Shown here: positions 16,163 to 29,709 of the stretch, one piece after another | How the letters are laid out: every line of letters starts with the position of its first letter | How positions within the stretch are numbered: the stretch's first letter is position 1 | NCBI RefSeq assembly: GCF_963921235.1 | Contig: NC_086097.1 | Coordinates: forward strand, 84,384,001-84,448,000 | Reading direction: 5' to 3' | Length of the DNA stretch: 64,000 nt | Source of the DNA: Mobula hypostoma | Lineage: Eukaryota | The notes under the pieces: generated by a model | Told to the model about the DNA's origin: nothing | Databases searched by the model: none | The model's input: the letters and a program-made list of their open reading frames with translations, nothing else | Made by a program: the position numbers and the translations under genes

Positions 16163-16693
16163 TAAACTCTTCTCGCCTGGCAAGCCGGGTACAGATATCA
16201 ATTATAACTGGTGTTTTGATGACAAACTCTGCTATCTTCATCAGGGATGATGCCTGGGCATGTCTAGTCCGGTGGTATTTATACCCCATTGTCCATCCCT
16301 CCTGATTGGTTCGTCCTCATGTGGGAGAGGTTTCTGCTCCCCCACTGTGTTACAACAGAATTTCAGCTCTTACTTAGAGCGAGACCTTCTCTGTTGTTAA
16401 GATTATTTTCCTGCCGAAGGAAGCCATTGAAATAAAACCGGAGGAAAAGAATTCTAACAAAGATGAAAGTCTCGCTCCAAGTAAGAACTGGAATTCAATT
16501 GTAAACAAGGTGGAAGAGCGGAAGCCTGATTGATTAGTTCTCATCCAATCAGGAGGGACGGAATACAGGGGTTTCCATACTGCCAGCCTGGACGTTCCCA
16601 GGCATGATCCCTGAAGAAGATGGCATTGTCTGTCATTGAAAGGCCTGTTATAATTGATACTTGTACCCGGCTTGAAACCCAAGAAGAGTTTTA
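16163..16693. mobile_element. Penelope-like (Poseidon-type) insertion made of two ~250-bp inverted arms
   Basis: The right arm encodes KEAIEIKPEEKNSNKDESLAPSKNWNSIVNK from 16417, a GIY-YIG C-terminal motif. The left arm is a diverged reverse complement (caagccgggtaca..atcaattataac vs gttataattgatacttgtacccggcttg). Each arm has a hammerhead-like core. Confidence 0.8.
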
Positions 16694-17346
16694 GAGGCTC
16701 CGAAATCCAGCACTGACCAAGCTGATAAGAAGCAAGTAATATTGCCTACACTTGTGCTGGATCAGTGATCACTTCTTTCAAGAGACGGAGAGAACAGCCA
16801 TCGGTACAACTTTCAACAAGATTTCCTGCTGTCAACATCCTGCAGGTCACCATTGATCAGAAACTTGACTAGATCAAGACCATCAACACTCTGGACTGAG
16901 AGTGTGAAACTTCTCCTCCTGAGCCTCTTCACCATCCAAAATACTCACGTTGGCAATGTTTTCAGAGTGAGTGCAGCTATAGCACTTACAGCTGGATCTC
17001 CAGAACAAACATGACATCCACCTTTTTCCCCTTTAGAGCTTTTTTCCCCTCTAGAGGCCGCAGTGCTGTACAAAAGTACAAAAACAATGTTATTGCTCTG
17101 ACAGCATCTTCCATATCCAACACAGGACAGCATATGTTCAAATTTGTTTAATTATCATTCAACCATACATGAATACAGCCTATCAAAACAGCACAAGGCA
17201 CACACAGCCCATTCACGATAGGAAGCAAACATCCAGTCACTCAAAACAAAAAAAGGGATCTGAATAAGAAGTTTTCCACCCGGAAGACGATTGCAATCTG
17301 GGTAGGTTGTGGAGGTAGACATACTTAGAACACTTAGGAAGTATCT

Positions 17347-17980
17347 GGTTGGCATCCATCTGTCTCCAAGGACAATGGGTGATGATGATGATCATCATCA
17401 TCACTAGCTTGGGTGGAAGGTGTGGAGATTGAGATGCCCAGTCAACAAGTTCCCCCTCTCGGTCTCACCAGTGTAGTCCAAAGGAAAGCTTTTGAAGCAA
17501 TACATTTGGCATCAGCTCGGCTGCAGGAGCTGCCAGAAGGATGTTCAATGACGTCCAGCCATCTTAGGGACTTCACCCCGGATTTGCTGTCTGGGTTTAC
17601 TCCTATAAACTTCGACTCTCCCGAGGCTGCCCACAAGGCAGTGGGGCTACTTGCCCATAGCTGGGGATCTGCTTCACGAGCCCAGGGCATGTCCACACAC
17701 CGGTGGGCCTGCGTGCTATGCGTGCAGGGGCCAGACCTCTTCCCTGTCTTCTGTAGTTCAGCCTGTGTCAGAAAGGAGTTCAGTTTCTGTGAGTCGCCAG
17801 CGAGGAGGCACTACATGAGGCTTGCTTTTGGAAAGGCTGTGTTTTGGCAGGGAGAGACGTACACATTCACCTCTCCTTTTCGCAAGACTGCTAGTCAGCG
17901 GCGGAGGCTGAAAGCGAGGGCGACAAGCACTACTCACTACACCACCACACACGACGCATCCCAACAACCATTTTGACACA
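17347..17980 (-). mobile_element. ORF-less RTE-clade-derived non-autonomous retroposon (~630 bp)
   Basis: The minus-strand 3' end ccattgtccttggagacagatggatgcc resembles RTE-type tails, and the body is GC-rich and 5'UTR-like. It interrupts an older CR1 3' fragment, with tatct duplicated at 17342-17346 and 17981-17985. Confidence 0.7.
17752..17937 (-). ncRNA. HDV-like (delta) self-cleaving ribozyme fold with large J1/2 insertion; this copy is probably partly decayed
   Basis: Minus strand: P1 GTGAGTA/GACTCAC, P2 TGTAGT/ACTACA, P3 GCC/GGC, L3 TCCTCGCT, P1.1 position AG (GG expected), short P4, J4/2 CTGA (CNRA). All elements occur in the correct nested order. Confidence 0.75.
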
Positions 17981-18059
17981 TATCTAGTCACATGCATATC
18001 ATCAGGGCATAGAAGGCTATGAACCAAGTGCTGGTAAATGGGATTAGATTAGGGTGCAA

Positions 18060-29057: not shown

Positions 29058-29423
29058 TTTATTCATTTCCATTGATGCTGCCTGACCTGCTGAGTTCTTC
29101 CAGCGTTTTGTGTGTGTTGCTTTGGATTTCCAGCATCTGCAGAACCTCTCGCTCTTATGTTTCTGTTTGGGTTCTGTTTCATAGCTGTCTGGCAATTTGT
29201 ACTACCCAGTTGTGTGATTTAATTGGGAATAAGCTGGCTCTTGAGTGGAACGAGTTTGACCTTTCACCCCCTTTCCCTAGGCCATAAACCCACAGAAAAC
29301 ACTCCTGCCTGGAAAGGAAATGATTATAAATAAATCACAGCTCTGCTGGGCAGGCCAAAGGTGAAAAATGTTACTTCTCAGCCACACTTACTGTTATTAC
29401 TGTTGACCTCTCGCCTTCTGCAG

Positions 29424-29529
29424 GTTGCCCGGGAGCGAAGAAGCTGGAGTTCATAACCAGTGTTTTGGACGCCCTGACCACAGATATGGTGCAAGCCATC
29501 AACTCGCCTGCACCTGCCACAGGAGGAAG
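29424..29529 (+). CDS. SMOC1: SMOC1 coding exon (linker/start of second EC domain), 106 nt, phase 1 to phase 2
   Basis: Acceptor ctctcgccttctgcag| and donor AG|gtatgt. Translates (G)CPGAKKLEFITSVLDALTTDMVQAINSPAPATGG(R), matching the recognisable SMOC1 segment GCPxxKKxEFITSxLDALTTDMVQAINS. Too short to appear in the ORF track. Confidence 0.95.
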
Positions 29530-29709
29530 GTATGTGCTCAATTACTGAGCGTGGGGAGTGATGGAGAGCACTGACCCTGGTCACCTCCTGTGTAACAGGC
29601 TTCTGGGCAGACTTTCACATCCCACACAGCGAATGCAAAGGATGACATGTCTTTTACATCCCTTTTTCAGAATCCCTGAGCACTTCTTGTCTAATTCATT
29701 CTTTACACT

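What the first reader, a model, noticed from the sequence alone, without database searches (positions are those of the whole stretch)
17752..17937. HDV-like ribozyme at the head of an ORF-less RTE-derived retroposon in a SMOC1 intron
Seen (minus strand, 5' to 3'): P1 GTGAGTA (17937-17931); a ~115-nt J1/2 closed by GCTTGT/GCAAGC and containing hairpins TCAGC/GCTGA and GGAGAG/CTCTCC; P2 TGTAGT (17815-17810); P3-L3-P3 GCC-TCCTCGCT-GGC; P1' GACTCAC; AG; a short P4 region; J4/2 CTGA with the catalytic-C equivalent at 17761; P2' ACTACA (17757-17752). Established: this is the nested double-pseudoknot order of HDV/CPEB3 ribozymes; GCCUCCUCGCUGGCG is the P3/L3 string of the genomic HDV ribozyme; and HDV-like ribozymes with long J1/2 inserts are known in 5'UTRs of R2 and RTE elements. 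Inference: a non-coding ray retroposon family defines its 5' end by self-cleavage. This copy has AG instead of GG at P1.1 (consistent with CpG decay of CACGG) and one P1 mismatch, so it may be impaired.
Basis: partly seen in the sequence, partly recalled or inferred. Interest (0 to 1): 0.82.

Follow-up and report, generated by a model that had tools for sequence, protein, structure and literature searches.

The report
HDV-ribozyme-headed mini-RTE retroposon, decayed copy

Summary
The HDV-like core is real. The element (window 17980-17347, minus strand, 5-8 bp target duplication) is one of at least ~2,000 ORF-less copies made of an RTE 5'UTR plus RTE 3' end, lying antisense in a SMOC1 intron. 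The family's 5' ends pile up at 17980-17978 (115 of 188 copies), where the terminal GGTGTC pairs with the family P1' GACACAC. In six metagenomic RTE relatives P1, P2, P3, P4 and a J1/2-closing stem covary at this register. This copy has lost G1, a P1 pair and a P1.1 G, and copies show no selection after insertion, so it is probably dead. Cleavage is untested. The kind is known (RTE/R2/L1Tc ribozymes; bipartite RTEs; SIDE, NARTc), and the scan has noted similar elements in other genomes. Sister RTE families here carry other HDV-like heads, one with a hairpin inside L3.

The parts
17347..17980 (-). Whole bipartite non-autonomous RTE retroposon copy (about 634 bp)
   Evidence: Homology to other copies starts at 17980-17979 and stops at about 17346; contig loose ends at 17346 and 17979; median full-length size 618, median longest ATG ORF 44 aa in 115 copies
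17981..17988 (-). Upstream target-site duplication (ACTAGATA; exact part AGATA 17985-17981)
   Evidence: 7 of 8 match; low score on its own, but at the family's modal TSD end
17342..17349 (-). Downstream target-site duplication (ACCAGATA), overlapping the short (AACC) tail
17975..17980 (-). P1 5' strand of the family ribozyme = 5' terminus (family GGTGTC; this copy TGTGTC). Predicted cut just 5' of 17980, plus or minus 1-2 nt
   Evidence: 5'-end mode 17980, TSD ends, cross-family covariation
17962..17968 (-). P1.2 5' strand, opening the J1/2 domain after an A-rich linker
   Evidence: 42 of 42 cells paired over 7 lineages, permutation fraction 0.0004
17944..17950 (-). Alternative P1 5' strand GTGTGGT (6 of 7 pairs with family P1'); second cluster of 5' ends
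17931..17937 (-).
17824..17830 (-). P1.2 3' strand (family CAACAGC; one change in this copy)
17810..17820 (-). P2 5' strand TGTAGT with predicted extension CCTC and a bulged A
17796..17809 (-). P3 (GCC/GGC) and 8-nt L3 TCCTCGCT with U20, C21, C22, G25 equivalents
17789..17795 (-). P1 3' strand (family GACACAC; this copy GACTCAC)
17787..17788 (-). P1.1 3' strand (family GG; this copy AG, losing the pair that is C-G in 7 of 7 lineages)
17763..17783 (-). P4 hairpin (two pairs broken in this copy)
17758..17762 (-). J4/2 G-C-T-G-A; predicted catalytic C at 17761 and A78 equivalent at 17758
   Evidence: C in 152 and A in 159 of 163 copies; C-N-R-A in all 10 sequences
17748..17757 (-). P2 3' strand ACTACA plus extension (family GAGG; this copy GAAG)
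17647..17666 (-). Conserved RTE 5'UTR motif (CCCCAGCTATGGG...)
   Evidence: Resembles the 23-bp RTE-like motif printed in PMC5786205; used to fetch RTE relatives
17400..17747 (-). Rest of the RTE 5'UTR-derived part
   Evidence: A family copy is 76% identical over 573 nt to L322, where an EN+RT ORF follows
17347..17397 (-). RTE 3'-terminal segment (CCATTGTC...AGACAGA.GGATGCCA) with microsatellite spacer
   Evidence: Same motif ends autonomous RTEs L495, L476, L493 (seen by eye, only 10-11-nt BLAST words)
29420..29533 (+). SMOC1 exon downstream of the host intron (aa 313-350)

Best explanation
This is a decayed, probably inactive copy of an ORF-less RTE-derived retroposon whose first ~230 nt are predicted to fold as an HDV-like ribozyme that likely cut the element's RNA out of host read-through transcripts just 5' of window 17980. 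Steps: (1) inferred: a source copy is transcribed as part of a longer host RNA; (2) predicted: the terminal GGUGUC pairs with GACACAC (five Watson-Crick pairs, then G1-C with a bulged A, or a mismatched base; register open by 1-2 nt), a covarying P1.2 stem closes the 159-nt J1/2 and an extended P2 holds P1 and P2 together as in drz-Agam-2-1; C17761 acts as general acid with Mg2+; (3) inferred: the released RNA, ending in the RTE 3' motif, is copied in trans by an RTE EN/RT protein by target-primed reverse transcription; (4) shown: copies carry 8-14 bp target duplications, start at the P1 strand, often with a few extra bases, and have since decayed about 9% (7% outside CpG) without selection on the core. 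A minority of RNAs was likely cut at the second-best P1 register (17950). This copy lies antisense in a SMOC1 intron, so SMOC1 pre-mRNA does not contain the ribozyme.
For: 5' ends: 164 of 188 core-spanning copies reach the terminal region, with starts at 17980 (64), 17979 (29), 17978 (22); among 69 copies picked by the middle or 3' part only, 44 reach 17964 or beyond. TSDs with score 8 or more end at -1 (8) or 0 (5) of 23 relative to GTGTC. L274, L353 and L372 have 7 of 7 P1 pairs at the homologous 5' position, two with G.U at position 1. Second cluster: 7 of 19 truncated starts fall in 17946-17952 after dropping three internally deleted copies, p 1.8e-5 (4e-4 after x21 windows), at the best internal in-register 7-mer. 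RTE origin. No in-register RT ORF after any of 159 family loci tested.
Against: No cleavage assay. In the main form the terminal strand is not a clean 7-bp P1: 85 of 102 classifiable 5' ends are N-N-GTGTC-AAAA with G before it in 55 and TG in 43, and GT in only 2; the clean GTGTGTC-AAA form is 6 of the other 17. PMC3774820 says P1 mismatches are uncommon and can abolish activity. The seven lineages are related (three form one subgroup), which inflates shuffle controls; single decayed copies stand for six of them. The inside of J1/2 is not more stable than shuffles (z -1.7 to +0.5). An internal promoter could also fix a 5' end. The second cluster could come from TA microhomology or an RT stop. 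No Rfam HDV model matches. The direct autonomous parent with this same head was not found in G000.
Confidence: 0.8

Rival explanations
1. The ribozyme fold was inherited from the RTE ancestor but was weak or dead in this family's source copy; the 5' end came from an internal promoter, and the leading G is a copied cap or a non-templated base.
For: Imperfect P1 at the cut end and frequent TG before GTGTC; TG also precedes the P1 strand in sister families; L1Tc's head is both promoter and ribozyme (PMC3383444, search listing).
Against: All core positions are intact in the column majority; a promoter does not predict a second start cluster at the best alternative P1 register; extra bases at ribozyme-made 5' junctions are described for R2 (PMC3774820); no tRNA-like head.
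Confidence: 0.13
2. One reading: the family, or at least this copy, cuts between 17938 and 17937 using GTGAGTA/GACTCAC.
For: In this copy that duplex has 6 Watson-Crick pairs and outranks the damaged terminal one.
Against: Family has G x A at the central pair; 1 of 188 copies starts there; no covariation; this copy lacks the invariant P1.1 G and two P4 pairs.
Confidence: 0.04
3. This copy has been co-opted to act on SMOC1 or on an antisense RNA in its intron.
For: Two rare changes (17934, 17792) happen to pair; the 5' junction is shared with a second organism's contig (record 32).
Against: Antisense to SMOC1; divergence 8.9%, the family median; core damaged; core and flanking columns decay alike across copies, 5.8% vs 6.4%, p 0.31; 16 of 163 copies reach 6 of 7 pairs at that register.
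Confidence: 0.03

Closest known systems
HDV-like ribozymes at the 5' ends of non-LTR retrotransposons (R2, RTE, Baggins, L1Tc; Ruminski 2011 as cited in PMC5786205, PMC6765202, PMC3774820)
   Same: Nested double pseudoknot at the exact 5' terminus of an RTE-clade element; variable extra bases at the junction.
   Different: Host is a cartilaginous fish; main form has a 6-nt P1 strand against a 7-nt P1'; a second 5'-end class at an alternative register. Ruminski 2011 itself could not be read, so a listing of this lineage there is not excluded.
drz-Agam-2-1 (PMC4908430, part 1 of 4 read)
   Same: Large J1/2 closed by a P1.2 helix with short linkers, and an extended P2 (here 10 bp with a bulge; there 12 bp).
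   Different: No Rfam match to the drz-Agam models at E up to 10; activity here untested.
Bipartite ORF-absent non-autonomous RTE LINEs (RTE-N2_Lch, RTESINE2, MAR4_MD; PMC5786205, PMC7245038)
   Same: RTE 5'UTR joined to the last ~50 nt of an RTE, microsatellite tail, target duplications, no RNA-gene head.
   Different: Longer 5' part (~580 nt); the ribozyme is mapped and tested for covariation here, whereas those papers only suggest it. Repbase could not be searched, so the family may already have a name.
R2 SIDE (Drosophila) and NARTc / SIDER (trypanosomatids; PMC4035085 passages)
   Same: Short internally deleted elements that keep an HDV-like ribozyme at the 5' end.
   Different: Different LINE clade; those ribozymes were assayed; R2 SIDE is site-specific.

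Membership tests
HDV-like ribozyme | Helix order P1-P2-P3-P1'-P1.1-P4-J4/2-P2' | tested here: met
HDV-like ribozyme | Covariation of P1, P2, P3, P4 among homologues | tested here: met
   (7 related lineages)
HDV-like ribozyme | 6-7 bp P1 beginning at the cut site with G1 paired | tested here: inconclusive
   7 of 7 in L274, L353, L372 and in a minority of family copies; 5 pairs plus G1-C with bulged A in the main form; not met in the window copy
HDV-like ribozyme | P1.1 (1-2 bp) between L3 and the bases after P1' | tested here: met
   Family CC/GG; window copy has AG and fails
HDV-like ribozyme | Catalytic C and A78 in J4/2; U20 and G25 in L3 | tested here: met
HDV-like ribozyme | Match to an Rfam HDV-family model | tested here: not met
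   a library match, not a structural criterion
HDV-like ribozyme | Mg2+- and C-dependent self-cleavage 5' of position 1 | not testable with these tools
   Needs in vitro assay
Bipartite non-autonomous RTE | 5' part homologous to an RTE 5'UTR from its 5' end | tested here: met
   L322, 76% over 573 nt, then EN+RT ORF
Bipartite non-autonomous RTE | 3' part homologous to an RTE 3' end with microsatellite tail | tested here: met
   Motif shared with ends of L495, L476, L493; short, judged by eye
Bipartite non-autonomous RTE | No ORF; many dispersed copies with target duplications | tested here: met
Bipartite non-autonomous RTE | Cognate autonomous parent in the same genome | tested here: inconclusive
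   Nearest family shares 75-79% over ~230 nt of 5'UTR and the 3' motif but has another head; searches score only the top candidates
tRNA-headed SINE | tRNA-derived head | tested here: not met
   ARAGORN finds none; the head is homologous to L322's RTE 5' end

The most novel reading that the evidence does not exclude
RTE elements in one ray genome swap ribozyme heads on a shared 5'UTR: a long-P1.2 HDV form (this family), a minimal HDV form, and an HDV form with a 7-bp hairpin inside L3 that I found in no paper searched; and this family's ribozyme cuts at two P1 registers, so thousands of old insertions record ribozyme cut-site choice in vivo.
Probability: 0.35. Interest if true: 0.6.

Novelty: new member of a known kind. 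Interest (0 to 1): 0.36.

Why it matters
It extends RTE 5' HDV-like ribozymes to a cartilaginous fish and shows them on an abundant non-autonomous family, supporting Kojima's suggestion that ribozyme-headed LINEs are the ones that spawn bipartite short elements. Insertion ends give a natural map of cut sites, including a second register. RTE UTRs are used in RNA-based gene insertion (PMC13708176), so knowing what makes their 5' end is of practical use. For SMOC1 itself the copy most likely does nothing.

Tried and rejected
Rfam scans: no HDV-family hit. RNAalifold on 92 decayed copies gave almost no structure, as expected for neutral decay; within-family covariation is uninformative. First search for a parent through PF20049 found Expander-like RTEs with no DNA similarity to the element. 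Protein and DNA searches with L322 found three other RTE groups but none with this head. The viral-contig scan gave 74 motif matches, none homologous. Test for a distinct GTGTGTC-AAA subfamily: only 3 full-length copies, no linked differences, inconclusive. Sequencing runs: no RNA holder listed; two RNA-guess runs hold family contigs but contigs show no start, strand or level. Ruminski 2011 and Webb 2009 are not held; their supplements may list such elements. Sequence look-up in earlier findings was blank.

Full report
Observation. A fixed descriptor of the HDV core, written after seeing the candidate, hits the 64-kb window once, at 17809, and none of 60 dinucleotide shuffles. Rfam has no HDV-family match here at E up to 10, nor in a better-kept copy or six related loci.

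The element. Searching the genome with three parts of the region gave 2,210, 1,927 and 2,813 first-look candidates, of which 40 were scored each time, so these are rough lower bounds. The P3-L3-P3'-N6-8-GG pattern has 153 exact matches and 0 in the reversed control; the 100 listed nearly all read like this family, and the 30 examined first were all family copies. I held 204 distinct copies. Homology runs from window 17980 to about 17347. Full-length copies have a median size of 618 nt and a median longest ATG frame of 44 codons (115 copies), differ from the column majority by 9% (7% outside CpG; 136 copies), and carry 8-14 bp target duplications where one scores well (23 of 58 copies). No RT frame continues any of 159 family loci tested. 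The window copy has a short duplication, ACTAGATA/ACCAGATA, lies between SMOC1 exons at C1:84,365,203 and window 29420, and points against the gene. The downstream exon is 100% identical to ray SMOC1 proteins.

RTE origin. The motif at 17666-17647 resembles the RTE 5'UTR motif printed by Kojima 2018 (PMC5786205, parts 1-3 of 5 read). Scanning metagenome contigs with it fetched animal-type RTE relatives; L322 is 76% identical to a family copy over 573 nt and goes on into an endonuclease plus reverse transcriptase frame. The last ~50 nt carry the motif that ends autonomous RTEs in this genome (by eye). The element is therefore a bipartite non-autonomous RTE, a kind called common for RTE in PMC5786205 and PMC7245038 (passages). 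Its direct parent was not found: the nearest autonomous family shares 75-79% over about 230 nt and the 3' motif but has a different head.

Where P1 really is. The family P1' is GACACAC followed by GG. Copies picked without the 5' part behave alike (44 of 69 reach 17964 or beyond; the two that stop at 17933 carry the 5' part beyond a deletion). The terminal bases GGTGTC are complementary to GACAC. In relatives the seven bases before the same A-rich linker pair with their own P1': GTCTACC/GGTAGAT, GTGTGTC/GACACAT, GTGTGTC/GACACAC (7 of 7 each), GTTTGCA/GGCAAAC and TTTTGCC/GGCAGAT (6 of 7); L322 needs a bulge. Over one family copy and six relatives 93.4% of 167 cells pair and 8 of 24 pairs change on both sides, against 0 of 500 shuffles and 32-45% pairing when slid. 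The lineages are related, so these fractions overstate independence. The inside of J1/2 is not unusually stable.

A second 5' end. Of 24 truncated copies nine start at 17946-17952; after dropping three with internal deletions, 7 of 19 (p 1.8e-5; 4e-4 corrected for 21 windows). This is the start of GTGTGGT, the best in-register internal partner for the family P1' (6 of 7). Cleavage at an alternative P1 explains it; PMC3774820 describes such register shifts in R2 (section 17 part 1 read). Microhomology at the TA before it is not excluded.

The weak point. In 85 of 102 classifiable 5' ends the form is GTGTC-AAAA, preceded by G in 55 and TG in 43; the clean 7-bp GTGTGTC-AAA form is 6 of the other 17. 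So the main source copy had five Watson-Crick pairs plus G1-C with a bulged A, or a shorter P1, and the first base is uncertain by 1-2 nt. Non-templated bases at ribozyme-made junctions are known for R2, while P1 mismatches can abolish activity.

This copy. It keeps P2, P3, U20, C21-C22, G25, the catalytic C and A78, but lacks G1, has a U-U clash in the true P1, has A for the P1.1 G that is paired in 7 of 7 lineages, and has two broken P4 pairs. Only 1 of 83 copies not picked by the core keeps all features (8 of 80 picked by it; the P1 count is sensitive to edge alignment), and core columns decay like their neighbours (5.8% vs 6.4%, p 0.31). It is most likely a neutral fossil.

Mechanism. Shown: boundaries, duplications, RTE homology, conserved and covarying fold, 5' ends at P1. 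Inferred: read-through transcription, self-cleavage with C17761 as general acid and Mg2+ (mechanism from PMC13635239, passages), activation by P1.2 plus an extended P2 as in drz-Agam-2-1 (PMC4908430, part 1 of 4), and mobilisation in trans by an RTE protein.

What is known. HDV-like ribozymes at RTE, R2 and L1Tc 5' ends, and on short partners SIDE and NARTc, are described (PMC6765202, PMC3774820, PMC4035085, passages). Ruminski 2011 and Webb 2009 were not available and are known to me only through citing passages and recall; Repbase was not searchable. Seven full-text searches listed no paper on such a ribozyme in a shark or ray or on an L3 hairpin insertion; that is weak evidence of absence. 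Earlier notes of this scan report HDV-headed retroposons in other genomes and a twister-headed short RTE in this genome (not checked).

Sister heads. Two autonomous RTE groups in this genome start with GGTTCC/GGA(A/G)CT (G.U at position 1 in 13 of 21 with a 5' end), a P1.2 stem, P2 CTCCTG/CAGGAG, no P4, and a 7-bp hairpin between L3 and P3' with a T-A to A-T change (16 vs 10 of 28 copies). A third group and its own short derivatives start with a minimal HDV-like head with almost no J1/2. These share the downstream 5'UTR, which suggests head swapping like the 5' switching described for plant RTEs (10.1101/2022.11.04.512097, passages).

Verdict. Real HDV-like ribozyme head on a bipartite RTE retroposon, with a corrected P1 and cut site; new member of a known kind; this copy probably dead. 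Interest 0.36.

Noticed in passing
L391-L415, L476-L483, L490, L493, L496-L520 (G000 autonomous RTEs, 5' heads): HDV-like head with 6-bp P1, P1.2 stem, single-pair P1.1, no P4 and a 7-bp covarying hairpin inserted in L3 before P3' (28 copies tabulated). Not found in the papers searched.
   Followed up: partly
L521-L545 (G000): Another RTE family with a minimal HDV-like head (J1/2 of 0-1 nt, long P4) and its own bipartite derivatives of 400-700 bp with different deletion points; P1 register ambiguous.
   Followed up: partly
L274, L325, L327 (metagenome contigs): Relatives of this ribozyme carry an 11-12 nt hairpin-like insert between P2 and P3.
   Followed up: no
L322 (metagenome contig Ga0302173_10009466): RTE with an open EN+RT frame and a head 76% identical to this ray family; host unknown; such closeness could reflect horizontal transfer.
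   Followed up: no
5' junctions of three RTE families in G000: TG is the commonest pair of bases just before the Watson-Crick part of P1 in all three, hinting at a shared non-templated addition or target preference.
   Followed up: partly
L150 (G000:C36:131,599,259-131,602,312): Expander-like RTE with a 1018-codon open frame and a (GAA)n tail, unrelated in DNA to the element.
   Followed up: no
window 16368-16486: Long near-perfect inverted repeat (weak Rfam miRNA-type hits below gathering score); probably a small DNA-transposon remnant.
   Followed up: no
window 18006-18047: A 42-bp piece of another high-copy repeat just upstream of the element.
   Followed up: no
L181: Family copy with four tandem repeats of the ~90-nt segment matching window 17731-17638.
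   Followed up: no
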